From NCBI RefSeq assembly GCF_023055435.1, contig NW_025963891.1:2914001-2978000 (forward strand): a DNA stretch of 64,000 nucleotides, read 5' to 3'. The position numbers were made by a program, and so were the translations under genes. The stretch comes from Haliotis rufescens (lineage: Eukaryota). This document shows positions 3,011-31,100 of this stretch, one piece after another. The notes under the pieces are model-generated. The model was not told the DNA's origin, ran no database searches, and saw only the letters and a program-made list of their open reading frames with translations. The first letter of the stretch is position 1, and each line of letters begins with the position of its first letter.

Positions 3011-4675
3011 GTCCGTCAATGTGGCTTCAGGCGAGAACACGGTGTAAACATAGCTACCTACATACTCAAAGAAGTCATATTTTTCTATACGGAAAGGTCT
3101 TCTAACGTATACACTGTGTTTCTTGATAATGAGAAAGCGTTTGATCGCATCTGGCACAATGGACTACTCCTAAAATTATTCATCTTTGGTGTGCAAGGGA
3201 AAGCCTGGCATATCATACGTCAGTCGTATCACGAATCTACTGCATGTGTCAAATATGCCGGTGAGACAAGTCGAACGTTCCCAATCGGACAAGGTGTAGG
3301 ACAAGGACGTGTCTTATCCGCCTGGATGTTCCTTGTGTATATTAACGAGCTTATAATCCGCCTTGACCATTTGAAACAAGGTGTTATGCTTGGACGTGAT
3401 CACTTCCCAGTTGTCCTACTCGCGGACGACACAACTCTCATAAGCTCAACAAGTAGTGGCATATGCATGTCCTTACAGACTGTACATCAATATGCTTGCC
3501 AATGGAGATTGACATATAATGCAAGAAAAAGCTGTGTTCTGGTGTTTAAAGGTGGAAACAAAATCAACCAACCAGGTTCTTTTAGACTAGGTAACCATAT
3601 ACTGGAAATGAAATCGAACACAATATATGCAGGTTCTATTATCAGTACTCATTTAGAATCCGAAAGGACCAGGAGAGCTTGCGCTAAGGCGAGGAAGAAT
3701 TTGAATTCCCTGAGAGATATTGGTCTAAGAGCAGGTGGTCTGAACCCAGTCTGCTGTATGAACATATGGCGTAGAGTAATAATTCCAGGTGCCTTCTACG
3801 CGTGTGAACTGTGGTCAAATATGTCCAAGACAGAACACAATGAAATTGAAAAACTCCAGCGCTACTTTGCACGTAATGTACAAAATTTTCATGTAAGATC
3901 TTCGACCGTTGCAACTATTCAGACGCTGGGATTGTGGACAATGACATCCGTGATTGACAAAATGAAGCTGATGTTCCTTGGGAGGATGTGTAGAAGCAGC
4001 CACAGATATGCCCCGAAAAAGGTGTTCTATTTCAAGTGTGCTCAATATATAACAGGCAGTGACAAAAGTAAGTCTGTAACACATGATCTACTCAATGTGG
4101 CAAAGAAATATGAATTATGGACCATAATAGTTCACTTTATGAAAACTAACCAGTTTCCATCCAAGGATGTGTGGAACAAAACCGTACAGACTAAAATAAC
4201 AGAACATGAAACTGCTCATTGGCACACCAGTCTGCAAGATCACCCTGAATTAAACAGATTTATTAAAATTCACAGTAAGCTTGTACCTCATAGACTGTGG
4301 AATATGTGTATTCTGTACAATATACCAACTAGACCTATGTATGCACTTGTGAAACTAGGAACACTACCAATAACACCTGGACAGTGTTTAATGTGTGATG
4401 AGGAGTGCGATGACATAATAAAGCACCAACTGCTATGTTGTACAGCTTTAGCTGATGCAAGGAACACCCTCTATGAACATCTATTTGACTCTTTAAACCT
4501 CGAACAATACATGCGTATTGAGGACTGTGCAGATGACGAAGTCAAACTTGTGACATTGCTAGGTGGTATAACCCCTATTGTAGAGGATATGAGCCTTGAC
4601 AGATGGGCTGAATTCATATCTTCTGTATCACGAGACATAAGCTCCTGGAACCTGCGATCACTGCTCTATCTATAG
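3011..4675 (+). CDS. LINE ORF2 fragment: reverse transcriptase plus C-terminal Cys/His domain (5'-truncated, uninterrupted)
   Basis: QCGFR, FLDNEKAFDRIWH, GVGQGRVLS, LLADD, CLMC...HQLLCC; the frame is open from the junction at 3011. Confidence 0.9.
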   Translation, partial: VRQCGFRREHGVNIATYILKEVIFFYTERSSNVYTVFLDNEKAFDRIWHNGLLLKLFIFGVQGKAWHIIRQSYHESTACVKYAGETSRTFPIGQGVGQGRVLSAWMFLVYINELIIRLDHLKQGVMLGRDHFPVVLLADDTTLISSTSSGICMSLQTVHQYACQWRLTYNARKSCVLVFKGGNKINQPGSFRLGNHILEMKSNTIYAGSIISTHLESERTRRACAKARKNLNSLRDIGLRAGGLNPVCCMNIWRRVIIPGAFYACELWSNMSKTEHNEIEKLQRYFARNVQNFHVRSSTVATIQTLGLWTMTSVIDKMKLMFLGRMCRSSHRYAPKKVFYFKCAQYITGSDKSKSVTHDLLNVAKKYELWTIIVHFMKTNQFPSKDVWNKTVQTKITEHETAHWHTSLQDHPELNRFIKIHSKLVPHRLWNMCILYNIPTRPMYALVKLGTLPITPGQCLMCDEECDDIIKHQLLCCTALADARNTLYEHLFDSLNLEQYMRIEDCADDEVKLVTLLGGITPIVEDMSLDRWAEFISSVSRDISSWNLRSLLYL

Positions 4676-4850
4676 ACAGTATATCTCATACCAGGACCAG
4701 GACATGTAAATATTCAGTATTGCCAATTTCTCTGCATAATATAATGTTCGTGTAAATATGCTGTGTTAACATGATTCCAAATGTATATCACTATCCGAAA
4801 TTAATGGAGGAAATAAAGATCATTCATTCATTCATTCATTCATTCATTCA
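3011..4850 (+). mobile_element. 5'-truncated non-LTR retrotransposon (LINE) with (TTCA)n tail
   Basis: Open RT frame, 3' UTR, AATAAA, then (ttca)n; probable TSD tagttcc; inserted in minisatellite 1. Confidence 0.92.
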
Positions 4851-7105
4851 TAGTTCCCTCTGTCTGATGTACACAGCTACATAGTTCCCTCTGTCTGATG
4901 TACACAGCTACAATATACGTAGTTCCCTCTGTCTGATGTACACAGCTACATAGTTCCCTCTGTCTGATGTACACAGCTACAATATACGTAGTTCCCTCTG
5001 TCTGATGTACACAGCTACATAGTTCCCTCTGTCTGATGTACACAGCTACATTGTACATAGTTCCCTGTCTGATGTACACAGCTACATTGTACAGAGTTCA
5101 CTGTCTGATGTATACAGCTACAATGTACGTAGTTCCCTCTGTCTGATGTACACAGCTACATAGTTCCCTCTGTCTGATGTATACAGCTACATTGTACATA
5201 GTTCCCTCTGTCTGATGTACACAGCTACATAGTTACCTCTGTCTGATGTACACAACTACATAGTTCCCTCTGTCTGATATATACAGCTACAATGTACATA
5301 GTTCCCTCTGTCTGATGTACACAGCTTCATTGTACATAGTTCCCTGTGGCTGATGTACACAGCTACATTGTACATAGTTCTCTATCTGATGTACGAAGCT
5401 ACATTGTACATAGTTCCCTCTGTCTGGTGTATACAGCTACATAGTTCCCTCTGTCTGATGTACACAGCTTCATTGTACATAGTTCCCTCTGTCTGATGTA
5501 CACAGCTTCATTGTACATAGTTCCCTCTGTCTGATGTACACAGCTACAATGTACACAGTTCCTTCTGTCTGATGTACACAGCTACATAGTTCCCTCTGTC
5601 TGATGTATACAGCTACAATGTACGTAGTTCCCTCTGTCTGATGTACACAACTACATAGTTCCCTCTGTCTGATGTACACAAGTACAATGTACGTAGTTCC
5701 CTCTGTCTGATGTACACATCTACATAGTTCCCTCTGTCTGATGTACACAGCTACAATGTACGTAGTTCCCTCTGTCTGATGTACACAACTACATAGTTCC
5801 CTCTGTCTGATGTACACAGCTACATAGTTCCCTCTGTCTGATGTACACAGCTACAATGTACATAGTTCCCTCGGTCTGATGTACACAGCTACATTGTACA
5901 TAGTTCCCTGTTTGATGTACACAGCTACATTGTACAGAGTTCACTGTCTGATGTATACAGCTACAATGTACGTAGTTCCCTCTGTCTGATGTACACAGCT
6001 ACATAGTTCCCTCTGTCTGATGTACACAGCTACAATGTTCATAGTTCCCTCTGTCTGATGTACACAGCTACATAGTTCCCTCTGTCTGATGTACACAGCT
6101 ACATAGTTCCCTCTGTCTGATATATGCAGCTACAATGTACATAGTTCCCTCTGTCTGATGTACACAGCTACAATGTACGTAGTTCCCTCTGTCTGATGTA
6201 CACATCTACATATTTCCCTCTGCCTGATGTACACAGCTACAATGTACGTAGTTCCGTCTGTCTGATGTACACAACTACATAGTTCCTTCTGTCTGATGTA
6301 CACAGCTACAATGTACATAGTTCCCTCTGTCTGATGTACACAACTACATAGTTCCCTCTGTCTGATGTACACAACTACAATATACGTAGTTCCCTCTGTC
6401 TGATGTACACAGCTACATAGTTCCCTCTGTCTGATGTACACAGCTACAATGTACATAGTTCCCTCTGTCTGATGTACACAGCTACATTGTACATAGTTCA
6501 CTGTCTGATGTACACAGCTACATTGTACAGAGTTCACTGTCTGATGTATACAGCTACAATGTACATAGTCCCTCTGTCTGATGTATACAGCTACATTGTA
6601 CATAGTTCCCTGTCTGATGTATACAGCTACATTGTACATAGTTCCCTCTGTCTGATATATACAGCTACTATGTACATAGTTCCCTATCTGATGTATACAG
6701 CTACATTGTACATAATTCCCTGTCTGATATATACAGCTACATTGTACATAGTTCCCTGTCTGATATATACAGCTACAATGTACATAGTTCCCTCTGTCTG
6801 ATGTTTACAGCTACATTGTACTTAGTTCCCTGTCTGATATAGACAGCTACATTGTACATAGTTCCCTGTCTGATGTATACAGCTACAATGTACGTAGTTC
6901 CCTCTGTCTGATGTATACAGCTACGTTGTACACAGTCCCTCTGTCTGATATATACAGCTACAATGTTCATAGTTCCCTCTGTCTGATATATACAGCTACA
7001 ATGTACATAGTTCCCTGTCTGATATATACAGTTACAATGTACATAATTCTTTGTCTGATATATACACCTACAATGTACATAGTTCCCTGTCTGATGTACA
7101 CAGTT
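4851..7105. repeat. Minisatellite 1, right arm
   Basis: Same units as 1644-3010; a diagnostic variant block at 2345-2425 recurs at about 5322-5400. Confidence 0.97.
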
Positions 7106-7689
7106 GCAATATATGTTGATCATCGGTCTCGAGTGGGAAACGGGTTGATGTGACCTTTAATTATAAGGACGAATGCACTCACAAAGGGCAGGCATCCACA
7201 TATATTGTAGTTGTATACATCGGACAGTGAAACATATTTTAGAAGGATTTACTTACTTTTAAGTGCAAAACACATGCGTTTTCTGGTTCACTAGATGTCA
7301 GTCCACCGCGTCTGTTGAGACAACAAATGTTGTGAATGCCCTCCACCCGAGAGACGCATCACAGCATTAAGTAGTCTACTGTGAACTACTGTGAACTCGT
7401 GGACACGTTCGGGTGCCCTTCATTTTTCAAGTATCGTGTAACCAATCCCGGCCTGTGGCATACCCGCATGTTCTAGTTTCGCTCCCCGTTCAGCTGCATC
7501 CATCTGCTTGTAAATACAGCTATATATTGATACACATAATGTACACATTATGAAATACAGCTGTTTTGTGTATACTGAGTATATAATGTTGTACAGTCAC
7601 CTTACGTAACTGCGATTGTTGTGTTTGAATACCAGCATTGTTTCATCTTTATAGTTTGAGAAATACCATGCTGTCTGATGTGTTTATGT

Positions 7690-8120
7690 CAAAATGTGAT
7701 GAAACCGGGTATTCGCGAGCCTTCCCCACAGGTGGCACCCGCCTCAAACACCTCTGAAGGCAAGTCGGTTGTTCACGTGAAAAGACAAAAATAGGGAATT
7801 GTATCGGACATCATTTTGGTCACTGATGCGTCAAATTTTGAAATGTCCTCCACATGTCCACCATGAAACGTTCTAAAAGCTTTTCTGAGGCCCTGAATGT
7901 TGTAACCTTAATCAAATAGCTTCTGGGCAAGAGCCGCATGGCGCTATTTGAAATCCTGGTAGAAAGAGCATGCTCGATTATACCTAAACATTTGTTAAAT
8001 GTAGACATCAAAGACATCAAGCTAAATGTCTTGGCCAAACGACATGTTGTGGTTTGTACACCTTCAAACGAAAATATAGTTGTTCGTTTCCTTTCAGAAA
8101 TGCGAGATTTCCCAAACGTC
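7690..8120 (-). mobile_element. Penelope-like element, RT C-terminus and 3' region (decayed)
   Basis: Minus frame RYNRACSFYQDFK*RHAALAQKLFD*GYNIQGLRKAF...FDASVTKMMSDTIPYF, homologous to 47659-47862. Confidence 0.7.
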
Positions 8121-8570
8121 TCATATTACCTATTGTCACAAAAAAGCAAAGTTCAGTGATTACCGTAATGAACTGACTAATAGCATATAGCATGACGACA
8201 CAAATATCAATGTTTCATACGAAGTTCACTTTAACGTAAACTTGTTATTTCTCATAAAATATTCCAAGACAACATCAACAAATTACATCTGTAAATGTTT
8301 ACAACGTTCTTTTGAAATTTATTGAATTAAAACAAATCCCCAAATAATAAACATATATTGTTCTCCATTCCAATATTGTGCTATGTCACATGACTGTTCA
8401 AGATTGCATACTGGTACATTGTTCACTAATTATTAATTTTAACATCTACAGTCCTGAATCTGATTTAATTAAGTGTAATGTGGCATCTAGAAACTGGATG
8501 AGCGTCACAGCGCCCATCTCCAGCAGATTTGTTGTGGCGTTGTCGTTGGGCTCCGTGGAGTCTTGAAACA

Positions 8571-9195
8571 GCAGCACGTCGAACCTATGTGTCCTGAACC
8601 AGTTGCACAGGTAGTGGACGACACGCAGCACATCGGACCCATGTGTCCTGAACCAGTTGCACAGGTAGTGGAAGAGACGCAACACGTAGGACCCATGTGT
8701 CCTGAACCTCCTGCACTTGTGGTGGACGAGATGCAGCACTTATGACTCATGTGTTCTGAACCAGTTTCACAGGAAAGGGAAGAGACGTAGCACATCGGAC
8801 CCATGTGTCATGAACCTGCTACACAGGTAGTGGACAGATAGCAGCACATCGGACCCATGTGTCCTGAACCTGCTACACAGGTAGTGGACAGATAGCAGGA
8901 CATCAGACCTGTGTGTCATGAACCAAGTGCACAGGTAGTGGAAGAGACGCAATACGTTGGACCCATGTGTCCTGAACCTGTTGCTAAGGTAGTGGACAGG
9001 ATGCAGGACATCGCCCCAAGTAGGGAGGGAAGAGACGCAGCACGCCGGACCCATGTGTCCAAAACCAGTTGCACAGGTAGTGGAAGAGACGCAGCACGCC
9101 GGACCCATGTGTCCTAAACCAGTTGCACATCTAGTGGACGAGGTGCAGGACGTCGGCCCATGTGTCATGAACCTGTTGCATAGGTAGTGGGAGAG
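8571..9195. repeat. 54-bp (18-codon) tandem repeat, about 11 copies, possibly a coding repeat
   Basis: Unit gcagcacatcggacccatgtgtcctgaaccagttgcacaggtagtggaagagac. Confidence 0.9.
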
Positions 9196-9536
9196 GCAAG
9201 CAAGTCTGACCGCTGTGTTAAGTCCATGGCGCTGTTTGGTCATCTCAAGCCTTTGGACTTTTTTTGCCATATGACATGTGTCGTGTCGAAGAGACATCCA
9301 CGATCAGGTATCAGGAAATGCATTTCCAGCGGAATTCAAGGCTGCATCCTTAATATAATTGTGGATGACCTCAGAATCTAGAGTGAGGCTGGTCGTTGCT
9401 AGCACCGCCTCTAAAACAGATGCCCACAGGTTGTTGATTCGTGTATCCAGGATATTGGTAGTAGTAAAGCAAAACATCATTTTACTTATTCCATCATTCA
9501 TTGAGAGGAAGTTTTGGTTGTCAATATGTTGGCAAG

Positions 9537-9755
9537 TCTACTAAAGTACTGTTGGAAATGCTAGAAAACTGCTTTTCTGGCTTCATTAAATAAATACGAG
9601 TCATAGGACTGTAAAAAGAGCATATATCAAAATAACGCGAATTGCCCTAATCTAGCCTGTCCTAACTGACACCGTGATTACCCTGAAAATGTACTTTTAC
9701 AAGTAAAAGGATGATCAACTTAGAAAATATTCGTGTGTTGTCATGCATGTATGAA
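9537..9755 (-). repeat. Dispersed repeat, inverted copy of 25200-25415 (end of the 59-bp satellite carrier)
   Basis: Reverse-complement match over about 215 bp. Confidence 0.85.
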
Positions 9756-9989
9756 ATGGCCTGAGGTAATTACCTAACATCTGTCCCGAGGTGATGACCT
9801 CACACAGTCCTGTGCATTCTCCCAGGTGCAAATGCCACCGAGTTGGGGGGTCTCAAAATATTGCTGTTATTGTACTTAATTGACATGAGTTGATGAGGTA
9901 GTAATTTAGGATATGTTCTGCATTATATTTGCTTGGAAACATGATGGACTATTTAAGAGCTATGAAACGGGATGAGTATTGGAAGGTTG

Positions 9990-10750
9990 CGGTTTTGGAA
10001 TCCAGAAGTATTTGTTGTTCTACAGATGGTTTCTTGAGGTAGCATTTATCTCCGTTGATGACGTAAATGAATCTGTATGTCTTGCCACGAACCCTGTACA
10101 TTTAGCCAAGATATATACAACAGGGTTGATCTCACAATGTCTGACTGCCGTACGTAAGTCGACGTAACAGTGTTGAGCCGCCAGCACATTTGTCTTGTAC
10201 TTTACTGGTTTCTTATTCATCCGAATGTTCTCCATGAGTTGAACTCTCGTTTCATATGATCTGAAATCGACCAATGTCATATATTCCTGTATGGTCGCCT
10301 TCAGACTACTCATGGTTTGGGCGACAGTATCTGATTCCCGTTATATTAAATGGCGTTATATCCATGACACTCACACTGACGTTGTTTAAAATGGGCAATG
10401 GCTGAAGTTCAACCAGTCTATGAAAATCTCCTTATGAAAATCCCCAGTTTTCTTTTTCGCCTCGAAAACATCCATGAATAAGCCCCATATCATGGGTTGC
10501 AGCGTGCAAAACAATGACACGATTACCTTTACCTGATGGTACCATGGGTGCTTTTTGTCCACCTGCCAATAGCCACATGTAGTCAGTGGAATGATTCACC
10601 AAGGTAAATTATCTGGACGCCCTGACTGTGATAGTTATGAATGGTTCGGAGATAATGTGACCTCATAGACTGGATGGAATATTTCCCCTGAAAAGTGCTC
10701 GGTCGTCGCCATGCGCAGTGTATCGAAATCCCATCTCTTGGAGAGCAATA
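9990..10750 (-). pseudogene. Decayed IS630/Tc1-type DDE transposase
   Basis: KAPMVPSGKGNRVIVLHAA..G, then after a frameshift KYKTNVLAAQHCYVDLRTAVRHCEINPV (cf. GH.VLRLP.YHCELNPIE); stops and frameshifts. Confidence 0.65.
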
Positions 10751-11442
10751 TTGCAGTTGGGAAACATTAATTGTATCTTTAATTCCTCCTAAATTCTACT
10801 ACAAGTCAGGGTTACCTTCTGCTCATAAAGGTTGTACACTATAAGCCTAATCACCCTGCATCAAAGCTGTCTAATATCCTTTTACGCCCCAGTTTTGTTT
10901 TTGAGACCACCCCTATACCTGTATTGTTTTCTTATCAGACCGTAGCCGTGATGGTATGAATTGAAAACACCATAGCTTGGGCAGTTCGGTAATTCACCCT
11001 ATCGTAATTAATAAAGTACAGATTCCATATCGTGTACCTTGGTTATGGCTATGCAAGTGTAATGTAACATGCATCATGGGAGCAGTGTTAACAAAAAAAA
11101 CCGCAGCGCCACTTTGTCATTTTAGGGGATGCACATCTAGAATTTTCTTGGGGAGTAGATGTTTTATGAAGACTACATTATTATCATTGTAACGTAGTCA
11201 CGTGCGCATATTTCTATACTCCGTTTCAGACTGCCATCATTGGACTAAATGTGAACTTCCTGTTTTCGTTCGAATTTGTCTCCTGTAAACTTGTCGATAT
11301 GACTCCTTGTGACTGAAATACTTCAAACCACAGGTAGGGCGATCGGTAGTTATTCGATATTTCAATAACAACAGTCTATGAAAAGTTATATCCTTTTTAA
11401 ACAGGCAAAAAGCAGTTTTCTAGCATTTCCGACAGTACTTTT

Positions 11443-12681
11443 AGCCTTATATTCATATTGTACTCACCAAACTACTATTGTTATTCTTGTACTTCTACCT
11501 AAGCCTTATATTCATGTTTTACTCACCAAACTACTATTGTTATTCTTGTACTTCTACCTAAGCCTTATATTCATATTGTACTCACCAAACTACTGTTGTT
11601 ATTCTTGTACTTCTACCTAAGCCTTATATTCATGTTGTACTCACAAAACTACTATTGTTATTCTTGTACTTCTACCTAAGCCTTATATTCATGTTGTACT
11701 CACCAAACTACTATTGTTATTCTTGTACTTCTACCTAAGCCTTATATTCATGTTGTACTCACCAAACTACTATTGTTATTCTTGTACTTCTACCTAAGCC
11801 TTATATTCATTTGTACTCACCAAACTACTATTGTTATTCTTGTACTTCTACCTAAGCCTTATATTCATGTTGTACTCACCAAACTACTGTTGTTATTCTT
11901 GTACTTCTACCTAAGCCTTATATTCATATTGTACTCACCAAACTACTGTTGTTATTCTTGTACTTCTACCTAAGCCTTATATTCATGTTGTACTCACCAA
12001 ACTACTATTGTTATTCTTGTACTTCTACCTAAGCCTTATATTCATGTTGTACTCACCAAACTACTATTGTTATTCTTGTACTTCTACCTAAGCCTTATAT
12101 TCATGTTGTACTCACCAAACTACTATTGTTATTCTTGTACTTCTACCTAAGCCTTATATTCATGTTGTACTCACCAAACTACTATTGTTATTCTTGTACT
12201 TCTACCTAAGCCTTATATTCATTTGTACTCACCAAACTACTATTGTTATTCTTGTACTTCTACCTAAGCCTTATATTCATGTTGTACTCACCAAACTACT
12301 ATTGTTATTCTTGTACTTCTACCTAAGCCTTATATTCATATTGTACTCACCAAACTACTGTTGTTATTCTTGTACTTCTACCTAAGCCTTATATTCATGT
12401 TGTACTCACCAAACTACTGTTGTTATTCTTGTACTTCTACCTAAGCCTTATATTCATATTGTACTCACCAAACTACTATTGTTATTCTTGTACTTCTACC
12501 TAAGCCTTATATTCATGTTGTACTCACCAAACTACTATTGTTATTCTTGTACTTCTACCTAAGCCTTATATTCATATTGTACTAATCAAACTACTATTGT
12601 TATTCTTGTACTTCTACCTAAGCCTTATATTCATGTTGTACTCACCAAACTACTATTGTTATTCTTGTACTTCTACCTAAA
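11443..12681. repeat. 59-bp satellite array, about 21 units
   Basis: Unit aagccttatattcatgttgtactcaccaaactactattgttattcttgtacttctacct. Confidence 0.98.
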
Positions 12682-12757
12682 TATACAGTCATACTATACA
12701 GACTATCCAACAACTGACATCATCCACCACATGAAGTCAACTGACAGTCTTTCTGCA

Positions 12758-12890
12758 TATAAATAAAAGCGACAAAACCCTTTCATATTCATCAGAAATC
12801 TCTGTAGAGGACATTTCCAAAATAATTTACGTATCGGTGAAAAAAATGATGTCTGATGAAATTTCCCTATTTTGACTTGTACCATTTGTT
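12758..12890. mobile_element. Penelope-like fragment with an inverted 3' end fused to a forward segment
   Basis: 12758-12803 is the reverse complement of about 48040-48082; 12805-12890 matches 47775-47856 forward. Confidence 0.6.
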
Positions 12891-12998
12891 CTCCAGGGTG
12901 TTTTCAGGTGAACAATAGACCGATCCAGTCTGTCAATCCAAATTGGCGCATGCGTCATTTTGAGCCAATCGGATTACTTCCGGGGTCAAACGACACCA

Positions 12999-13193
12999 GA
13001 GAAGCGACATGGGTACGGTTTGTGCTATTTTCACTCGCGATATCCATTACGTATCGCTGGGATTAGATGTTTACCTTTACCCAAACCCACAGGGTCGGGA
13101 GAAAAATGTTTGAAGTTGATCAAAATGTGCGGTAGGCCTCATCATCAGTTAAACGTCGTCAGCATCCTCCATGGGACCCACGTCTGCTCGAAG
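12999..13193 (+). pseudogene. THAP zinc-finger exon of a transposase
   Basis: YGLC..SRYP...LPKP....KC...IKMCGRPHHQLN...HVCSK followed by a gtgagt donor; conserved Cys and Trp positions are degraded. Confidence 0.65.
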
Positions 13194-15614: not shown

Positions 15615-15649
15615 TGTTGTATATTTTATCAATGAAAGTTAATTGACTG

Positions 15650-17995: not shown

Positions 17996-17999
17996 CATA

Positions 18000-18460: not shown

Positions 18461-18599
18461 ACAAGAGTCGTACTGAATACAATATGAACATACATTAAAT
18501 ACAACAGATAATATAAATGAGAGGCACTGTATACTAACGTACATAAACACACCCGCCTACACACCTATGTGCATATATTAGACAATGTATAACATTATG

Positions 18600-19143: not shown

Positions 19144-19462
19144 TTAAATTAAATATATCCAAAATAGGTAGTTGCCACGACTTGATAAGTGTAAAATTCT
19201 TATTAGTCCATGATTAACGATAATTACGTGACCATAGATGGACTTTATTAGACAACAAACAGGGCTGTAAGTTTCGCTTTGAACCACCATCCCCACCCTG
19301 TCGGTAGGGATTATGTAATCGGTGCGCACATAACTGTGTCCAGTTTACCGCGGGTGTTGATGCAGTGTCAGTGTCGAATGGTTTTGTGATAGTTGTGCAA
19401 ATATTCGTTGTATATCGTATATTTCTGTTACTAACTATCTCTATTTGCCCTTTTACTATTTA

Positions 19463-19805
19463 TTCATTCATTTATGGATACCAAAGAATGAATTTATATC
19501 ACAAATTTGATTTGATTTTAATCATGAAATGTTTATTAATATAACAAATCGGTTCTTAGATATCAATAACTGAATTTATTATCCAAAAATTACTATTTAT
19601 TCATTATGTGATATCAATAATTCATTTATGGATACCGAAGAATGAATTTATATCACAAATTTAGAAAATCGGTTTTTCTATATCAATAACTGAATTTATT
19701 ATCAAATAATTACTATTTATTCATTATGTGATATCAATAATTCATTTATGGATACCAAAGAATGAATTTATATCACAAATTTAGAAAATCGGCTTTTAGA
19801 TATCA
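19463..19805. repeat. AT-rich tandem repeat of about 121 bp, left part
   Basis: attcatttatggataccaaagaatgaatttatatcacaaattt three times; resumes at 22797. Confidence 0.9.
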
Positions 19806-21941
19806 TTGAAAGACTATGTGATACAGAACAAGGGGAGTTTTGGAAGAAGATAGGGAAGATCGGTGTCGGTAACAACAAGAATAGGAGAATTCCTTTTGAA
19901 GTCCAGTTAGAAGATTGAACAATATCCAGTGACCGAAGAACAGTTTTAGAAGCTTGGAAGAATGCATATTCCAGCCTGTTAAACTGTAACAATAGTACAA
20001 CAGAACCCTGTGACACAGATGAAGACGGACTTAGTGAGACTGCTCTGGACACTGTGATATCAAGACATGAGGTACAACAGGCTATTATGCAGGCGAAAAA
20101 TGGAAAATCACCGGGAAGTGACGATATACCAGCTGAAGTTTTAAAAAATGAATTTTTAAAAAATTTCTTATTTAATCTGTTTAACTTATGTTTCCGTGCT
20201 GGTCAAGTACCCTCACTATGGGCAAAGGGGATAATCAATCCTATTCGGAAGAGTTCTACAGCAGACCCAAGAGATCCACTCGCCTACAGAGGTATCACTC
20301 TAGCAAATTCAACATACAAGATTTATTGTGGACTCCTGAATAATCGACTTTCTAAGCATGCTGAACTTAAAGATTTATTGTCTGATAATCAAAATGGATT
20401 TAGAAAAGGTCGATCAACGGTGGAACATGTGTCAACATTAACATCTATAATTGAAACGAGGAAAAGTCTCAAGAAATCAACTTTTGTCAGTTTTATTGAC
20501 TTTACGAAGGCTTATGATTGCATAGACAGAAGTATTCTCTGGAATAAATTACGTTATATGGGCATTCAGGGACGATTTTTAAATGCTTTCGTGTCGCTGT
20601 ATAGAGACGTTAAATGCTGTGTACGACTAAATGGACAATACCCTCCATGGTTCGAAGTGAAATGTGGCCTCAAACAAGGTTGTCTTTTATCACCGCTTTT
20701 ATTTAACCTCTATGTGAACGATCTGATTGACAAGGTAAATGCTTTGTCTCTAGGCGTTGAAGTCGACGGCGAAAACATCAGTATCCTCGCCTATGCAAAT
20801 GACATCATACTCATTACAAAAAATGAGGAGAATATGAATCTGTTGTTGGACGTTTTCCATAAGTGGTGCGTTGAAAATAAAATGAACATAAATGCAGGAA
20901 AGTCCAAAGTAATCCACTTCAGGAATCCATCGGTATGTCAAACTACACAGCGTTTCGAGTGTGGGACGAATGTTATTGAAATTGTCGACAGTTATAATTA
21001 TCTGGGCTTACTCCTCTCTGAACACTTGGACTTTAGGAGAATGGGACAAGATATAGCAAGTTCGGCTAACAGAGCGTTAGGGCTGCTGATATCAAAATTC
21101 AAGGTTCTCGGAGGGATGCAGTACAATACATACACTAAACTCTATGACTCCATGATGTGGGCGACAATGCAGTATGGATCAGCTATCTGGGGAACATACA
21201 ATTTCAGCTGTATCAACGCAGTCCAGAACAAGGCTATGCGATTTTTCATGGGATTGAGAAAGTTTGCTCCGAATAATGCTGTATCTGGAGACATGGGGTG
21301 GATTCCCCCAATAGTAAGACAATGGGAAACTATCTCAAAGTTCTACAAACGTTGCAGTTCCCTTCTACAACAAAGATTAACAAGAAAAGTATTTGTGTGG
21401 GCCAATAAACACGCACTAAACAACAAGAGGAACTGGAACTTCAGAGTACACACGAAGTATAAACAATTAGGTCTATCTGTTTTTACCTCCACAAATAACA
21501 CGTATCACTATCGTCAAATTGGAGGTAAAGTGAGAGATACTGTATTTCAACGCTTCAAGGAGGAATGGAAAGTTTCAGTGAGTCAAGTGAACAGTCAAAG
21601 CGGTAACGGAGGCAACAAGCTACGACTATATAATCAGCTGAAAAACGAATTTAATGTTGCTTATTTAAAATACATTCCTATGTCAAAGCCTAACAGACGC
21701 TCTCTAGCTGTATTCAGATGTGGTGTAGCCCCACTACGAGTCGAGACTGGGCGATATACAAACCTACTTATCAACGAGAGAGTGTGCTTTTATTGTGATA
21801 CGTGTGTGGAAGACGAAGTCCATGTTCTATTGCACTGCCCAACTTATAATGACGTTCGACAGGTTTTATTAGATAAATGTATTGAAGTGTGGTGTGGTTT
21901 TAAAGATGAATGTGATATTGTGAAAGTTTGTACAGAATTTT
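19806..21941 (+). mobile_element. LINE ORF2 fragment (RT plus C-terminal CCHC), truncated at both ends and inactive
   Basis: ORF 20054-21949: GKSPGSDDI, YRGITL, QNGFRKGRST, FIDFTKAYD, GLKQGCLLSP, catalytic motif mutated to YAND, ETGRY..RVCFYC; stop near 19918. Confidence 0.92.
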
Positions 21942-22787
21942 GGGAGTAGTGCGCTTTACCGGGCGCACTTTTTCAGATCCAATTAGCGCTAGGGGGGCCC
22001 GAACGCGCTTCGCCGGCTCACCGGCTTGGACCACAGGCGCTATCACATGTATTCAGTGCTCGTTTAACGGGTCATTAACACCCCATTAACGTAATTCAGA
22101 AAACAAAGAATTGCGCATGCGTGTGACGTCACCGTCCGCTCTCCCATTAATCTTTTCTTGAAACCACACCCGCCATTGTTTATGTCAACATGACCGACCA
22201 ATCGGATAAATGGATTAACGCTTGAAAAGGTAAGAATTTATGGCTAACCCTTGCCCAAAGCAAGCTAACCCTAAGACCGAAAAGGGGTGTTGGATCGTAA
22301 AGACGTGTAAGTTTCCCTAAGACCGAAAACGGGTGTTGGATTGTAAAGACGTGTAAGTTTCCCTAGACCGAAAACGGGTGTTGGATCGTAAAGATGTGTA
22401 AGTTTCCCCGAGACCGAAAACGGGTGTTGGATCGTAAAGACGTGTAAGTTTCCCTAAGACCGAAAACGGGTGTTGGATCGTAAAGACGTGTAAGTTTCCC
22501 TAAGACCGAAAACGGGTGTTGGATTGTAAAGACGTGTCAGTTTCCCTAGACCGTAAACGGGTGTTGGATCGTAAAGATGTGTAAGTTTCCCTAAGACCGA
22601 AAACGGGTGTTGGATCGTAAAGACGTGTAAGTTTCCCTAAGACCGAAAACGGGTGTTGGATCGTGAAGCGAGAATCACCGGAGCGTGAGGCACGGTAACG
22701 GTATAGCGAGACAGCGGTAGCACTATAGCGCGGTAATTGACTGAATGGAAGAGCTCGGGCTGCGCCCGGTAAACTGCATTGTTGCCC
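21942..22787. mobile_element. MITE/HINE-like element with imperfect terminal inverted repeats and an internal tandem array
   Basis: gggagtagtgcgctttaccgggcgca ... tgcgcccggtaaactgcattgttgccc; T-rich left flank; ctaaccct motifs. Confidence 0.65.
22271..22665. repeat. 46-bp tandem array, about 8.5 units
   Basis: Unit ctaagaccgaaaacgggtgttggatcgtaaagacgtgtaagtttcc. Confidence 0.97.
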
Positions 22788-22796
22788 AATAGGGAG

Positions 22797-22998
22797 AATT
22801 CATTTATGGATACCAAAGAATGAATTAATATCACAAATTTGATTTGATTTTTATCATGAAATGTTTATTAATATAGCAAATCGGTTTTTAGATATCAATA
22901 ACTGAATTTATTATCAAATAATTACTATTTATTTATTATTGGATATCAACAATTCATTTATGGATGCCAAAGAATGAATTTATATCACAAATTTGATT
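22797..22998. repeat. AT-rich repeat, right part
   Basis: Matches 19463-19660. Confidence 0.9.
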
Positions 22999-24283
22999 TA
23001 AATAAGGTTCACGGAGACGAAGGCTATAGATACAATACCATATTAGATTTTGTAGATGATTAAGATTTTTTAATAATTCGTGAAGATAAGTACAGTATCG
23101 TAACATTTACATATATAGTCACATTCAGATGATGTCTCTACATATAAGTAAGGGCAAGTTTCTTCCCTTTGTTTATTCGTTTTTCCTCCTGGCTCTGAAG
23201 GTGGAACACAGGCTTTAGGGTTACATATGTATCATTGTATTTTAATGCGATTTGAATATTATTCTTTACTATCGTACTTACTTCATGTTTTAAATGAGAC
23301 TTCATGTTTTAATTTGACATGTCACCACAAATTACAATTATTGCTTCTTAGCTCAACATAATTGACAAATACTCTAAAAGATATGACTAGTAAACCATTA
23401 ATGTACGTTGAAAAAATATATATTGTAAATCGTAAGTAGAAGATATATTGACAGTAGCGCTGGGATTTTATTCAACAAGCCCGTCAAAACAACACTCAAT
23501 GTTCACCTCTCCTGGCGGCCATTATGCAACGGCCATCTTATACACAACCCCACGCTCACGTCTACAGGTCTCTTCCTGTGGTACGGTAATTAGTAGAACC
23601 CTCTCCCCAAAGTGTATCCTCCATGATATAACCTACTCTCATTAATTAAATGCTGCCCTTTCCCAGCGTCATGGCTATGGAGCTGAGACAAAGAGACCAA
23701 ACCATCATAAAGTAATCTTAACACCATCGCAAAACATCATGTAGAAGCAACAACAGTAATCATATCACATCTTAAAATGAGACATCAGCAAGTACATATA
23801 ATAAAATGTGTATTAACATTTTTCGTCAGGAAATAAAAAAAAATATCTCCTTGTTACCACCTCCAAGTTCAGCTAAACTCAGGTCCTCCTTTGGTCAAAA
23901 GTTTGTTCCCCCTGTAATGAGTGTGTCACGCGTTGCACACGAGTGGCGAACGGGGTGCACACCCGTGTTCAGCGCGTTGCACACAGGTATCACACGCGTG
24001 GCGGACGGGTTCCACACGAGTGACCAACGGGGTGCACACGGGTATCACACGCGAGTCGGACGGGTTCCACACGAGTGACGAACAGGGTGCACACCCGTGT
24101 TCAGCGCGTTGCACACGGGTATCACACGCGTGGCGGACGGGTTCCACACGATTGACCAACGGGGTGCACACGGGTATCACACGCGAGTCGGACGGGTTCC
24201 ACACGAGTGACCAACGGGGTGCACACGGATTGCGTAACGCGTTGCCCATGCTTGTAAGGGGAATGAACTTCTAGGCAGTAGTG

Positions 24284-25182
24284 TACATGTACCTAATTAC
24301 TCGCTGTTCGTTAAGTCCAATATTCTGGAAGTTTGACCAGGCATTTTTATCTAACTTTAGAATTCCAAACTGATTGCCATATGCAAACAGATTGGGATAA
24401 CTAATAGTTATAATTCCTTACATTCTGCATTATTTTAGGATGGCATAGATATGTTAAAACGTTTAATGAGGGACAGTTTACTGACATCTGCTGCAGATTT
24501 GGGGCTGAATATCAGCCTCTGAGCAGGTCTAGATTTATCCCTGGTGACATGCCCAACCCTATGTTCCAGATGCCCAAATAAAATATATTCATTTATTACA
24601 TAATAAAACCAATGTAGCAGTGGGGGGAAATAATGTACTGCTTTAATTTTATCAACTATTCTTTTATGTTTATTCATTAAAAGGGCCCACTAACTCTATG
24701 CCTTTCAGGTTATATTGGTTTTGCTTAGAGCACCAGACACAAAACGTGGGCAATGCAACTGGTGACAATCTATTTATAGATATCCACATGATTTGTAACT
24801 TTTGCTTGTTTCCAGTACTTTCCATACACTTAAATTACGATGGAAAGTAAAAACAAAATTTAGTTAATCCACTCTTGGATGAATAATATATTATTGACAT
24901 GCTGTAAATTGACAATATAGTATGCTCTGCCTGACATGAGTGCTTCGAAGTAGTGCACGCTTCTAACTTTCAGCCATGGTGACTTCCTCATTGACCGATA
25001 CACCATTACATCGGACTTATGACTCATTCTCACTCCCGATATGTAACTTGACAACTTAAATAGAACCCCAAAACAGATCATGTATAATTCTCTTTAGATA
25101 TTTTTGACACACGACTGGTAAGAAAGCATCCTGAGCCAAATTCATCGCCCGCGCATTCAAGTTTCACCGGCTGTGACGCCAT
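24284..25182 (-). pseudogene. SWIM/YqaJ-type gene remnant, upstream part
   Basis: ATG at 25182 (MASQPV..); G.LF..SSYISGV...VYRSMRK; GQ..PEYW..RTASN*VHVC, with the HVC codons spanning the CACTA junction. Confidence 0.45.
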
Positions 25183-25410
25183 AGCGAACAGCCAGTGGTT
25201 ATACATGCATGACAACACACGAATATTTTCTAAGTTTATCATCATTTTACCTGTAAAAGTACATTTTAAGGGTAATCACGGTATCAGTTAGGACAGGCTA
25301 GATCCAGGCAATTCGTGTTATTTTTATATATGTTCTTTTTATAGTCCTATGACTCGTATTTATTAAATGAAGCCACAAAAGCAGTTTTCTAGCATTCCCG
25401 ACAGTACTTT

Positions 25411-26790
25411 AGGTAGATGTACACGAATAAAAGTAGTGATCAGGTAGGAACAACATGAACATAAGGCTTAGGTAGATGTACAAGAATAAAAATAGTGGTC
25501 AGGTAGGAACAACATGAACATAAGGCTTATGAAGATGTACAAGAATAAAAATAGTGGTCAGGTAGGAACAACATGAACATAAGGCTTTGGTAGATGTACA
25601 AGAATAAAAATAGTGGTCAGGTAGGAACAACATGAACATAAGGCTTAGGAAGATACACAAGAATAAAAATAGTGGTCAGGTAGGAACAACAAGAATAACA
25701 ATTGTAGTTTTTTGAGTACAATTTGAATTTTAGGCTTACGTAGAAGTACAAGAATAACATAGTAGACCGGAAGGAACAATATGGATGGATATATTGCTTA
25801 GGTAGAAGTACAAGAAAAACAATAGTAGTCAGGTAAGAACGGTGAGGTCTACTAATGCCTACAGTGACAAATGCCTACAGTGACTAATGCCTACAAAAGT
25901 TGTTGTTTTAGTGTACACACTGTTTCACGCACCCCTGCACTCAAATGGTCTACTCTACTTAGTGTTCACTTATGCCTACACTGTAAACACAGACTAATTA
26001 ATGCCTTAGAAATGTTACTTGGATTGTGAAAATATTTGAGAGCCCATCCGAACATTTTTGCCTTCATCAAAGTGATCCAGAGACTAGAGAAGACGGACAG
26101 AAACAAGCTTGCTCAGTATCTCCGTCCACCACCCCGCAAGAGAATCTACCTAGAGATCAACCAGAGACTAGAAAGGCTACAGGAGCAGCTTCGACTGGGT
26201 ATCAAGTCTCCCCCAGTTCCTTGATGCAGCTGGATGTGTTGTAAAACTGGGCTAACAAAGCAACTAGTTTGTTCAACTCTGTGACACATGAAATAGGATA
26301 AATGAAAATGAATGATACATATGGATGATGTATGAGATGATATATGATGAATGTTAGTCTGATATTTATATAATGTACATGCAGTATGATAAATGAAACT
26401 GAATGAAATGTATATATAGATAATAAAAGATGTGTGATAAAATGGGAGTGTGAATGTGATGTTTGAATCATAATGTACATGAAATATGATAAATAAAACT
26501 ATGGATGATGTATGATGTATGACAAATCAGAAGAAATGTATGAATAAAGAAAGAACACAAAATATCATTTGCTAGTGTTTGTCATTTGTCACTGTAGGCA
26601 ATAGTACATTAAAATGGGCCAGTTCAACTCTGCAGGGAGGTAGCAGGGTATCACATGTAAAACCACTGAAGCATATAATGTTTGTTTTAGACTGTAGGCA
26701 TTTGTCACAGTAGGCATTAGAGGACTCCCCCGTAAGAACAATATGAATATAAGACTTACGTAGAAGTACAAGAATAACAAGAACAGTTTG
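25411..26790 (-). repeat. Diverged 59-bp satellite in the opposite orientation to 11443-12681, interrupted by a MULE
   Basis: aggtagatgtacaagaataaaaatagtggtcaggtaggaacaacatgaacataaggctt is a reverse-complement variant of the unit; resumes at 26732. Confidence 0.85.
25841..26731 (+). mobile_element. Non-autonomous Mutator-like (MULE) element
   Basis: TIRs with ctaatgcctac.gtgacaaatgcctacagt; TSD gtaagaac; transposase C-terminus remnant HPNIFAFIKVIQ...RKRIY...NQRLERL (26036-26224). Confidence 0.8.
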
Positions 26791-27946
26791 GCTTGAATAT
26801 AAGTCTTTGTATAGGTACACAAGGTATAGGTATAGGTACACTATAACAACGTTAGTTGTGAGGTCGGAACATAAGCCCCAGGCAGCTACAGCACAACAAT
26901 AGCAGTTATATACCAGGTATTTAATACTATTTGTAACGAGTGATTGAAATGCTTCATATATGGCCTCCACATAAGAAGTAAGCTGTGTGCATAGCTAAGG
27001 AGTTGACAGCGACAGTGAGTTAGTTGGATTAAATGCAGCTTGGAACAAAACTTCAGTAATCTCACGATTTGTAAGTTTAATTTGGGGGAAATGTGGAGCA
27101 CGTCTTAGACATTTGATAATCTACAGTGAGACTATCCCACATTTCAAAAGACAGTCGGTGTATCTCAATTCCCTGAGCGCTTTGGAGACGGTGTTCATTC
27201 GTACTGGCGAATAGGCCAGATATGTTAATCGTAAAGGGGCCAGATTTGAGACAAACATTACAGATATTATTCAAATTCAAGAACGAATTGATAGAATAAC
27301 CCTCCATAGATACCTAATCTGTTGTCTACATCTGAATACTGTCGTTTTCAGCTGAAGAAGAGTGGCACTGTACGACACGAAGGAGACTTGTGTGGCCGTG
27401 ACACAGTAGTTGGTTTGTGTTAATTGTGAGTGTTTTGAAATCTATTTCGGCAGATAATCGACACTGATGGCGTTGACGTTTTTTATATGCTATTCTTTGT
27501 AGAACCTCGTAGAGGTCAGTAGCTACTGATTCGATCACCCAGGAGGAAGTAAATATGATCATGACATGTTGATAAACTAAACATAAAAAACCATCACATA
27601 TTTGTATTTTGTGGTAATATTGTTTCAATTATACTACCTCTTTTATAATGATTGTTTCTGCGATTTATGGACTTCCACGTGAAAAGTATCTATATACTAT
27701 GTACCATGTGTAGGGAGCAGTATATTAGTGTGAGGAGAATCCACGTGTACGTTTTCAGGTTTAGTGGTATTAGAGTGCGGAGCTTGCACAACTCCGTATT
27801 CTGTATTGAGCACGAGGTATTGCTAGGATGATCTTGTAGCTGGCATGGCAATGTTGACCAAATGAGATGCAATCTCAGATGGAAACATTTCCAGCTTCAA
27901 CCAGAAGTGTGCACGTGTACTACGCCAAGACATCGTGTACGTCATC

Positions 27947-28109
27947 ATGGCCGTGAACATTCCCGGACTCATCTCCGTCATCGTGTTCTACATCCTCATC
28001 CTCGTCATCGGCATTATCGCAGCCAGGAAAAGCAGAAGTACCAGTGCCGAAAACTCGTTCGTGGCCAATAGAAGCATAGGATTATGGCTGTCGTTCTTTA
28101 CCATTACGG
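27947..28109 (+). CDS. SLC5A7: SLC5A7-like exon 1
   Basis: [19 protein letters not shown]...FFTIT; gtaag donor. Confidence 0.93.
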
Positions 28110-31100
28110 GTAAGGACCAAAGCTATCTATAGTTAGGCATGTACGAATTGAGAGTCGGTACAAAGGTGTCCATGATGATCCCTTCCAAGTACAACCATTA
28201 ACCTTACAGTTACAAGTAGGTTCTGCAATGGACAGGACAGCCTCTTGTAGGTATTACTGTTATCCTGACAGTCACGTGCAGGGACTACTATTACGAGTAC
28301 CTTGACAGTCACGCGCAGAAACTACTATTACCTTGACAGTCAAGTGCAGAAACTACCATTACCCTGACAGTTACGTGCAGGAACCACTATTACCTTGACA
28401 GTTCCGTGCAGGAGCTACCATTACCCTGACAGTTACGTGCAGGAGCTACTATTACCCTGACATTCACCTGCAGGAGCTACCATTACCCTGACAGTCACGT
28501 GCAGGAACTACTATTACCTTAACAGTCACGTGCAGGGACTACTATTACCTTGACAGTCACCTGCAGAAACTACCATTACCCTGACAGTTACGTGCAGGAA
28601 CCACTATTACCTTGACAGTTACGTGCAGGAGCTACCATTACCCTGACAGTTACGTGCAGGAGCTACTATTACCCTGACATTCACCTGCAGGAGCTACCAT
28701 TACCCTGACAGTCACGTGCAGGAACTACTATTACCCTGACAGATATGCTTGACGATGATGATATGCTTTCTTTCTTTCTCGGTGCAGATGTCCATGAATT
28801 GACAAACGAACTTGATTACGATACTTGGCAAAGCATCATACTGTCTTTCTGCCACTTCATATGGAATTTAAAGAAATACCTTATGTATATCTACTAGATA
28901 CCTTACTGCTCTCAAAATGTACATTGTAAATTGTTTATTCATAGCAGTGTATAACATGATTTCTTTGTATATAGTCAAGTAATTTCATTGATGTATTGTA
29001 AATAATGTACTTGCCCATGTAAAATCTTCGGCTTCAACTCTGGAGGAAATAAAGAAATTCATTCATTCATTCATTCATTCGTGCAGGAGCTACTATTACC
29101 CTGACATTCACCTGCAGGAGCTATCATTACCCTGACAGTCACGCGCAGAAACTACTATTACCTTGACAGTCACGTGCAGAAACTACTATTACCTTGACAG
29201 TCACGTGCAGGGACTACTATTACCTTGACAGTCACGTGCAGAAACTACCATTACTCTGACAGTTACGTGCAGAAACCACTATTACCTTGACAGTTACGTG
29301 CAGGAGCTACCATTACCCTGACAGTCACGTGCAGGAGCTACCATTACCCTGACAGTTACGTGCAGGAGCTACTATTACCCTGACATTCACCTGCAGGAGC
29401 TACCATTACCCTGACAGTCACGTGCAGGAACTACTATTACCTTAACAGTCACGTGCAGGAACTACTATAACCCTGACAGTAACGTGCAGGAACTACTATT
29501 ACCCTGACTGTCAACTGCAGGAACTACTATTACGCAGACAGTCACCTGCAGGGACTACCATTACCCTGACAGTCATTTGCAGGAACCACTATTACCTTGA
29601 CAGTTACGTGCAGGAGCTACCATTACCCTGACAGTTACGTGCAGGAACTACTATAACTCTGACAGTAACGTGCAGGAACTACCATTACCCTGACTGTCAA
29701 CTGTAGGAACTACTATTACGCAGACAGTCACCTGCAGGGACTACCATTATCCTGACAGTCACGTGCAGGAACCACTATTACCTTGACAGTTACGTGCAGG
29801 AGCTCCCATTACCCTGACAGTTACGTGCAGGAGCTACTATTACCCTGAAATTCACCCGCAGGAGCTACCATTACCCTGACAGTCACGTGCAGGAACTACT
29901 ATTACCTCAACAGTCACGTGCAGGAACTACTATTACTCTGACAGACACGTGCAGGAACTACTGTTACCCTGACTGTCAACTGCAGGAACTACTATTACCC
30001 AGACAGTCACCTGCAGGCACAACTGTTACCCTGACATTCACCTGCAGGAACTACCATTACCCTGACAGTCACGTGCAGGAACTACTTTTACCCTGACAGT
30101 CACCTGCAGGAACTACTATTACCCTGACAGTCACGTGCAGGAACTACTTTCTTTTACCCTGACAGTCACGTGCAAAGTACTAATTGATCGTTATCTAAAA
30201 GGGTACATGCATACACCAGCTAGCACAAAGTTCAAACATAAACATAAATTGTGATATGAGATTCTGGTAGCTGGGGTTTGATTAAAAAAAGAAGTTACTT
30301 TTCCCGGACATAACTCTTCTTATTGTCTCAGGTTGTACATAAGCAACCAGTTGTGCGCTGTGCATTTTGGATGTCCTGGCAAAAATCTATGTTGTGCAGA
30401 AAGAAATCGTAGGGGTCATCATTTCAGAAAAAGATTGTAGGTTTTGTGCAAATGTTTTCACATGCAACCTTACTTTTCTCAGATTGCTCTTGAAAACAAA
30501 GTAGTTCGCTCATCTGCATTACTGGACGGTCAACATTAAGTTACGCTAAATACGATTATTTTACTATATTACATGATTATACATGAATCATGGTGATGAA
30601 TGTTCACACTTCTACAGCCACCAACATTGGGGGAGGCTACATTAATGGTACAGCGGAAGCCATGGCATTTAGCGGCCTCATCTGGACCAATGCTCCCATT
30701 CTGTATTCCATTTCCATTGGCGTTGGTAAGGGGATTTCAATTAACAAAACACAGTGAAAATATACCGAAATGTAATTATTTGATGAACGAATGAATGTTA
30801 ACAGTTGCATTTGTCGTGGATCTTGTACTTTCATTTTGGCCCTGGACTAATATCATTTATTATGTGTAATTATTGAATGTGACAAACATGTTTAATGAAC
30901 GGAGCAAACATAAAGGGTTTTTTTTAGAAAAAAGAATAGATTTTTAAACATGCATGTTGATTAAATTTCAACATTTAAATTGTTCAGGAGAGTTTATTTA
31001 AACTGTCTCACAACTGTATACATACATATTATTTTTCAGCTGGAGTGTTTTACGCGCCTAAGATGAGAAGAGGAGGATATGTAACCATGTTCGACCCCAT

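What the first reader, a model, noticed from the sequence alone, without database searches (positions are those of the whole stretch)
3011..29080. Two related (TTCA)n-tailed LINEs, each inserted inside a different minisatellite: possible minisatellite-homing retrotransposon lineage
Seen: insertions 3011-4850 and 28743-29080 both end tggaggaaataaaga plus (ttca)n. Their ORF2 C-termini are homologous but clearly diverged (DDEVKLVTLLGG..DRW..WNL vs [17 protein letters not shown]). Each sits inside an unrelated 31-38-bp minisatellite. Both 3' junctions fall at or next to an AC|GT-like position of the repeat unit (tacgtagttcc; t[c/t]acgtgcagg). The first copy has an uninterrupted frame of about 555 codons, so it looks young. 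Known: some non-LTR clades target simple repeats or rDNA. Inference: this lineage may prefer minisatellites or a short shared motif, using arrays as safe havens. Two of two copies is suggestive only.
Basis: partly seen in the sequence, partly recalled or inferred. Interest (0 to 1): 0.7.

Follow-up and report, generated by a model that had tools for sequence, protein, structure and literature searches.

The report
LINE family favouring TACAT-rich minisatellites
One young family of jumping genes in this animal genome sits inside many unrelated tandem repeats about four times more often than chance, likely because its enzyme prefers DNA crowded with a short TACAT-like signal, while its close relatives show a weak preference or none.

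Summary
Both insertions are real 5'-truncated LINEs inside minisatellites, but they belong to two families (A and B; ORF2 38-39% identical). The genome-wide test splits the claim. Family A (copy 1) is strongly enriched: its 3' flank is a minisatellite in 37 of 57 independent loci (22 of 27 youngest), against 13-17% at random, 13 of 50 for an unrelated young LINE and 4 of 47 for a sister family. Host arrays are mostly unrelated. Family B (copy 2; 16 of 47) does not differ from the unrelated control, and sister family D scores 0 of 19, so homing is not lineage-wide. The junction is not AC|GT: it is YA|CAT (28 of 34 A sites), with 2-4 bp of tail microhomology. The motif alone predicts 21-33% in arrays; motif plus local motif density or purine-pyrimidine alternation predicts 47-51%. 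The likely mechanism is preference for motif-dense, alternating DNA, which here lies mostly in minisatellites. Enrichment falls with age, which argues against safe-haven survival. It works like Waldo/Mino microsatellite targeters, but in another lineage (Proto2/RTE-like by recall, not tested). Earlier scan notes report single-satellite targeting by other LINEs in other genomes; none retrieved covers this family.

The parts
1643..3016 (+). Left arm of host minisatellite 1 (38/31-bp units rich in TACAT/TGTAC); 3011-3016 is array-like filler at the 5' junction
   Evidence: TRF; sequence; element start at 3017
3017..4675 (+). Family A copy 1: 5'-truncated ORF2 (RT and C-terminal domain with a CxxC...H...C cluster), 552 codons, no internal stop
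   Evidence: (RVT_1 E=5e-17); 99.4% to nearest copy
4676..4820 (+). Family A 3' UTR ending GGAGGAAATAAAGAT
   Evidence: 65 exact genomic matches of the last 25 bases
4821..4852 (+). (TTCA)n tail; its last CAT is shared with the array (pre-insertion site inferred GTA|CAT|AGTTCC)
4853..7110 (+). Right arm of host minisatellite 1
28255..28742 (+). Left arm of host minisatellite 2 (31-bp unit), likely in an intron of a choline-transporter (SLC5A7-like) gene
   Evidence: last exon 33298-33855 matches CHT1, E=1e-36; exon 27947-28108 translated, its identity with the CHT1 N-terminus is recalled, not searched
28743..29057 (+). Family B copy 2: last ~50 codons of ORF2 (in frame) and 3' UTR
   Evidence: (50 exact matches); 99.7% to nearest copy
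29058..29080 (+). (TTCA)n tail; 1-bp overlap (C) with the array (site inferred TTA|C|GTGCAGG)
29081..30174 (+). Right arm of host minisatellite 2

Best explanation
Family A is a young 5.3-kb two-ORF LINE whose copies sit in many unrelated minisatellites about four times more often than chance, likely because its APE endonuclease nicks at YA|YAT and works best where that motif and purine-pyrimidine alternation are dense, DNA that in this genome lies mostly in minisatellites. Inferred steps: ORF2 nicks the bottom strand opposite YA|CAT; the freed 3' end (…ATG-OH) pairs with CAU of the (UUCA)n RNA tail and primes reverse transcription; the 5' end is joined after a second break, often 11-27 bp further on in repeat phase, or with loss of target DNA. 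Shown: the enrichment, the junction motif, the microhomology, the strand bias and the composition of host arrays. The short cut motif appears shared in the lineage (family E, with a (TC)n tail that cannot supply AT, is followed by AT in 20 of 47), while the regional preference is strong only in A, weak or absent in B, and absent in D and E.
For: Array at the 3' flank: A 37/57, young 22/27; random 52/400 points, 16.8% of bases, bootstrap 10.7-24.0%; 30 kb away from 20 young A sites 24%; control C 13/50, young 8/32; E 4/47, young 2/19. Without the 5 related CA-rich arrays A is 32/52, p=3.5e-4. YA left of the tail overlap in 28/34 A sites against 28% null, p=5e-11; consensus T-A-Y-A|C-A-T-R. Overlap of 3 bp or more in 17/35 against 8% null (one of the 17 is an artefact of a duplicated copy). 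YACAT on the element's sense strand 622 against 231. A host arrays have (YR)3 density 0.116 against 0.030 in background arrays; 25/57 A flanks have alternation of 0.65 or more against 9% of background motif sites; non-array A flanks are also more alternating than random non-array DNA, p=1.4e-4. APE and RT domains are present, with the recalled catalytic motifs intact.
Against: Matching on motif plus alternation or motif density predicts 47-51% in arrays, the observed figure is 65%; a gap remains, although control C also runs above random (26% against 13-17%). Motif density and being in an array are confounded, since any unit that holds the motif repeats it, and the motif was inferred only from array-embedded copies. 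13 of 57 A flanks have alternation under 0.55. No targeting domain was found: ORF1 is an unassigned helical domain, a coiled coil and an RRM-like domain, alike in A, B and E. The top background bins rest on 11-14 of 40 regions. No biochemical or de novo insertion data.
Confidence: 0.65

Rival explanations
1. True array homing: family A senses tandem repetition itself (stalled forks, slipped structures, repeat chromatin, or easier 5' joining onto any homologous unit) and the YA|CAT motif only sets the phase.
For: Residual excess over composition-matched expectation (65% against 47-51%); A exceeds background in the low-alternation bins too (4/13 against 10-12%; 6/9 against 35%). 37 host arrays with periods 15-120 bp, only 11 of 666 pairs related, 10 of them among five CA-rich arrays. 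The 5' junction keeps a +11 to +27 phase in 11 of 12 testable A arrays (10 of 12 in a 10-25 window picked after seeing the data, p=0.008), but often not as an exact duplicate.
Against: The residual is about the size of the general excess in control C; A avoids the many alternation-poor arrays (median YAYA density 0.086 against 0.028); non-array A sites are alternation-rich.
Confidence: 0.2
2. Safe haven: insertion is nearly random and copies outside arrays are purged, perhaps because this element often deletes target DNA.
For: Exact target-site duplications are rare in non-array A copies (1 of 20 at 6 bp or more), and 13 A copies have an array only on the 3' side by TRF, which fits deletions.
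Against: Enrichment is highest in the youngest copies (22/27 against 8/20). Young C and E copies survive outside arrays (24/32 and 17/19), and E also mostly lacks duplications (3/31). Reaching 81% from 17% would need about 95% of non-array insertions removed. Passive survival does not give a junction motif or a strand bias.
Confidence: 0.08
3. Counting artefact: a few insertions multiplied by array recombination or by the assembly, or arrays generated by the LINE itself.
For: Such duplicates exist: 8 A rows and 3 B rows were collapsed.
Against: After collapsing, the arrays are different and truncation points differ. Arrays flank both sides in 24 of 57 and their units are 72-94% alike while young copies are 99% alike, so arrays are older. 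A contig of another sample joins a family A 5' end to the same 27-bp repeat that hosts L205.
Confidence: 0.04
4. Lineage-wide minisatellite homing by all GGAGGAAATAAAGA-ending LINEs.
For: B is 16/47, young 10/22, higher than E (p=0.005; young p=0.019).
Against: B equals control C (p=0.51; young p=0.15); D 0/19; E 4/47; B groups with D and E (SH-aLRT 99, quick tree) and not with A.
Confidence: 0.03

Closest known systems
Waldo (WaldoAg1/2, WaldoFs1; ACAY microsatellites) and MinoAg1 (AC microsatellites); PMC3812793, passages read
   Same: APE-type non-LTR elements that insert into alternating purine-pyrimidine repeats; the ACAY unit resembles YA|CAT.
   Different: Those target pure microsatellites in insects (R1 clade, recalled). 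Family A mostly uses 15-120-bp minisatellites of unrelated sequence; only L033 among 57 has a clean (TACA)n flank. The preference is statistical (65%), not strict. No Waldo sequence was compared.
Tx1-clade target-specific LINEs: Kibi (TC)n, Koshi (TTC)n, crocodilian (TTCC)n/(TTTC)n families, Tx1L in Tx1D; PMC4494074, passages read
   Same: Preference for a class of repeated DNA; family A passes that paper's rule of thumb (a target type in over 20% of flanks), although the background here is already 17%.
   Different: One defined target sequence each; family A has no single target family. A lies outside the clade of mammalian L1 rows in the tree; no labelled Tx1 row was included.
RTE-clade Tn-TA signature (Bov-B, Sauria SINE, plant RTEs); PMC13295347, abstract, Results and Discussion read
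   Same: Cut next to a pyrimidine-A step; microsatellite tail proposed to affect priming.
   Different: No T-tract about 10 bases upstream in 34 A sites; RTEs have one ORF and frequent duplications, A has two ORFs and few exact duplications.
ZfL2-2 type integration with 3' microhomology, duplications and truncations; PMC2666801, passages read
   Same: Mixed target-site duplication and truncation, microhomology at both ends.
   Different: No minisatellite preference in the passages read; a different clade (L2).
Proto2 / RTE-X LINEs of molluscs; PMC10294476 and PMC7846101, passages read
   Same: Length 5.3-5.6 kb fits the reported Proto2 mean of 5,675 bp; a Pinctada protein (P0004) is the nearest named relative.
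   Different: No reference sequence was available, so membership is untested; no target preference for Proto2 turned up.

Membership tests
APE-type non-LTR retrotransposon (LINE) | ORF2 with APE endonuclease followed by RT | tested here: met
   Exo_endo_phos E=1e-14 and RVT_1 E=5e-22 in A (L150); same domains in B (L159)
APE-type non-LTR retrotransposon (LINE) | 5'-truncated copies with a fixed 3' end and simple-repeat tail, no LTRs | tested here: met
   Copy lengths 32-5,367 bp in A; natural full-length copies of about 5,336 (A) and 5,583 bp (B)
APE-type non-LTR retrotransposon (LINE) | ORF1 with coiled coil and RRM-type domain | tested here: met
   Model: helix 148-275, RRM-like 391-471, best match nucleolin RRM Z 9.8, rmsd 2.1 over 74 residues; Pfam finds nothing
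Proto2 clade (RTE group) | RT groups with reference Proto2 sequences | not testable with these tools
   No labelled references held; the supplement searched gave names only. A, B, D, E form a clade apart from L1 rows, RNase H-bearing rows and the zinc-knuckle group of control C
Proto2 clade (RTE group) | Length about 5-6 kb with two ORFs | tested here: inconclusive
   5.3-5.6 kb against a mean of 5,675 bp in PMC10294476; CR1-Zenon and RTE-X lengths there are close, so this does not discriminate
RTE clade with Tn-TA signature | TTT about 10 nt upstream of the cut | tested here: not met
   T at -13..-9 is 11, 7, 10, 6, 13 of 34
Waldo/Mino (microsatellite-specific) | Insertion into pure (ACAY)n or (AC)n microsatellites | tested here: not met
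   One of 57 A flanks is a clean (TACA)n; about six more are degenerate CA-rich repeats; the rest of the hosts are minisatellites
Waldo/Mino (microsatellite-specific) | RT in the R1 clade | not tested
   No R1 reference in the tree
Target-preferring LINE (functional class) | Flanks enriched for one DNA class over background and over other young LINEs, with a fixed junction phase | tested here: met
   Family A only. Family B inconclusive; E not met

The most novel reading that the evidence does not exclude
Family A is a minisatellite-homing LINE that recognises tandem repetition or clustered, alternating DNA structure rather than one target sequence, so it can use hundreds of unrelated arrays; it gained this habit apart from sister families that share its cut motif, and arrays later shed or scramble the copies, acting as sinks and not as havens.
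Probability: 0.25. Interest if true: 0.8.

Novelty: new variant of a known kind. Interest (0 to 1): 0.58.

Why it matters
Repeat-targeting LINEs in the papers read each aim at one sequence (a microsatellite, a gene, a transposon). Here one family reaches dozens of unrelated minisatellites through a short motif and its density, in a lineage where no preference turned up in the searches run. Families A, B and E are young in the same genome, share a 3' end and apparently a cut motif, yet land in arrays at 81%, 45% and 11% (youngest copies). That is a natural comparison for finding which part of an APE-type ORF2 or of the RNA tail turns a weak motif into regional targeting. It also suggests that dated LINE insertions can measure minisatellite turnover.

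Tried and rejected
AC|GT motif: rejected. Short motif as the whole cause: regex motifs predict 21-33% and PWMs 22-24% in arrays. Repeat-rich neighbourhoods: 24% at +30 kb (10.7-40.7%), and two of those 20 stretches were wholly array. Host arrays as parts of one transposon family: no shared sequence beyond the 3' end of 19 arrays whose end was in hand. Tn-TA signature: absent. A targeting domain in ORF1: the N-terminal helical domain gave no clear fold match (best Z 6.2); the ESM Atlas gave no answer. Tc1 at 34936-35688 as a TA-target control: no terminal repeats found, dropped. CTTGA-tailed LINEs (14 rows, none in an array) were too few and redundant to use. Expression: no RNA holder on record; 17 antisense short reads in X23 and 0 in X22; two runs guessed to be RNA cover the element: weak, not used. 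The empty allele at copy 1 could not be checked, since only the element body was laid. Two papers recalled as relevant (clade classification by RT; LINE mobility pathways) are not held. Literature searches for a prior report: listings, no matching title or abstract start; 0 papers; nothing relevant; most subscription journals and Repbase/Dfam are not covered, so absence is not shown.
Full report
Observation. Both insertions are as described, with small corrections. Copy 1 interrupts a 38/31-bp array (1643-7110) and copy 2 a 31-bp array (28255-30174). Copy 1 proper starts at 3017; the six bases before resemble an array variant, and three of four other samples show the natural upstream sequence at 3017 among the listed loose ends. 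It encodes 552 uninterrupted codons with an RT domain. Copy 2 is also in frame and 99.7% identical to its nearest copy. It likely lies in an intron of a choline-transporter gene. Earlier scan notes call the genome abalone; I did not test that.

What the elements are. The shared end with tail has 166 matches, some counted twice, in the 1.33-Gb genome and none for the reversed control. Family-specific 25-26-mers give 65 A and 50 B hits, and all 115 were examined. These are exact matches, so lower bounds biased to intact ends. Natural full-length copies are about 5,336 bp (A) and 5,583 bp (B), with ORF1 and an APE-RT ORF2. ORF1 is a helical domain, a coiled coil and an RRM-like domain. A and B ORF2 are 38-39% identical. 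Two more families share the 3' end: D, (TTCA)n-tailed and old, and E, (TC)n-tailed and young. In a quick IQ-TREE run (the careful search did not finish) B groups with D and E, A groups with P0001-P0003 and then the Pinctada protein P0004, and all lie in a clade apart from mammalian L1, RNase H-bearing elements and the group of control C. The label Proto2/RTE-group is recalled from motifs and fits the length in PMC10294476 (passages); it was not tested.

Enrichment test. The criterion was a TRF array of period 7 or more, 2.5 copies or more and 100 bp or more, starting within 60 bp of the tail. Copies duplicated with their flank were collapsed: 8 A rows and 3 B rows; the pair L044/L059 was merged by my judgement. 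Result: A 37 of 57, B 16 of 47. Background: 40 random 10-kb stretches from the 22 largest contigs (lengths taken as lower bounds, small contigs unsampled; one fell in the host array of L053 and was kept) hold 16.8% minisatellite, bootstrap 10.7-24.0%, and 52 of 400 random points pass the criterion. Stretches 30 kb from 20 young A sites hold 24%. Control C, an unrelated young LINE, 50 of 137 hits in listing order with five clustered rows skipped: 13 of 48; the script dropped two non-array rows that are separate loci in a SINE, so 13 of 50. E, 50 of 108 hits with one row skipped and three duplicates: 4 of 47. D, all 21 hits, two duplicates: 0 of 19. A against C p=9e-5; youngest copies (nearest neighbour 98.5% or more, 100 bp or longer; a cut-off chosen after seeing the data) 22/27 against 8/32, p=2e-5; B against C p=0.51, young p=0.15; B against E p=0.005. 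The 37 A host arrays have periods of 15-120 bp, and 11 of 666 pairs are related, 10 among five CA-rich arrays; without these five A is 32/52.

Target site. For array-embedded copies the pre-insertion site was inferred from neighbouring units. Tail and target overlap by 3 bp or more in 17 of 35 A sites (8% null) and 5 of 16 B sites (7% null). Left of the overlap stands YA in 28 of 34 A sites (28% null) and 9 of 16 B sites (22% null); the A consensus is T-A-Y-A|C-A-T-R. Family E, whose tail cannot supply AT, is followed by AT in 20 of 47, which points to an endonuclease preference and not only to tail pairing. YACAT is on the element's sense strand 622 times against 231. No upstream T-tract is seen, unlike the Tn-TA signature of PMC13295347. 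Exact duplications are rare: 1 of 20 non-array A copies and 2 of 29 B copies at 6 bp or more; 3 of 31 E and 5 of 19 C at 8 bp or more (two further E duplications of 15 and 21 bp are visible by eye). In arrays the A 5' junction usually falls 11-27 bp past the 3' junction in repeat phase, B mostly 1-16 bp before it. Mixed duplication and truncation is known for ZfL2-2 (PMC2666801, passages).

Why arrays. The motif alone is not enough: 21-33% expected. But A does not use arrays at random. Its hosts have three times the YAYA density and about four times the (YR)3 density of background arrays; 25 of 57 flanks have 65% or more purine-pyrimidine alternation against 9% of background motif sites; and 61-81% of motif-dense background sites are in arrays. 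Matching on these gives 47-51% against 65% observed. The gap is similar in proportion to the excess of control C over random, so tandem-sensing is not required but not excluded. Motif density and tandem status are confounded in this sample.

Against a safe haven. The array share falls with age in A (22/27 against 8/20) and in B (10/22, 4/10, 1/12), while young C and E copies persist outside arrays. The trend fits array decay or loss of copies by recombination between units, or a recently sharpened preference; these were not separated. Thirteen A copies have an array only on the 3' side by TRF; in four the array does reach the 5' junction on a BLAST check, and in L205 a contig of another sample joins a longer 5' end to the same 27-bp repeat, so some one-sided cases are later rearrangements.

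Comparison and verdict. The closest behaviour in print is Waldo (ACAY) and Mino (AC) (PMC3812793, passages) and the Tx1 microsatellite families (PMC4494074, passages); each aims at one simple sequence. I found no report of a LINE spread over many unrelated minisatellites, which do not cover most subscription journals or Repbase. PMC7846101 and PMC11203168 (passages; one supplement of the former searched) and PMC3747384 (passages) gave no clade test. Earlier scan notes describe single-satellite targeting by other LINEs in other genomes. Verdict: real and strong for family A, unproven for B, absent in E and D; a new variant of target-preferring LINE; interest 0.58.

Noticed in passing
L177, L179, L185 (3' flanks): Control LINE family C (TTGAC tail) has three separate insertions, on two contigs, at the same position of an abundant SINE-like repeat, with a GAC overlap: a possible second target preference.
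   Followed up: no
window 19919-21949: Another LINE fragment (676-codon RT frame with a C-terminal zinc-knuckle-like motif), cut off at both ends, groups with control C in the tree; followed by a GC-rich element with a 46-bp array at 22269-22668.
   Followed up: partly
window 34936-35688 (-): Tc1-like transposase frame of 250 codons; no terminal inverted repeats found in 33900-36800.
   Followed up: partly
window 41967-42407 (-): Frame resembling the restriction-like endonuclease end of an R2/NeSL-type element (recalled motif); no Pfam hit.
   Followed up: no
L056/L057 (G000:C73:179173-181183): One family A insertion with its 64-bp host array duplicated in inverted orientation; the two copies have different 5' lengths (2,725 and 3,338 bp).
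   Followed up: partly
L034-L037, L075-L077, L221, L226: LINE ends amplified together with their host arrays; L077 is a shorter version of L075/L076, showing recombination inside the array.
   Followed up: partly
L159 and L232 (5' end of family B): Full-length B begins with a short (CCGTTG)n repeat.
   Followed up: no
G000:C68:15328121-15476390: Cluster of six family C ends at 15-30 kb spacing between two family E ends: likely a tandem segmental duplication.
   Followed up: no
window 11443-12680: Very homogeneous 59-bp array (97% matches, 21 copies), likely a recent expansion.
   Followed up: no
window 3017-4820, run X23: 17 short reads, all antisense, six starting at 3913: possibly piRNA-like; none in X22.
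   Followed up: partly
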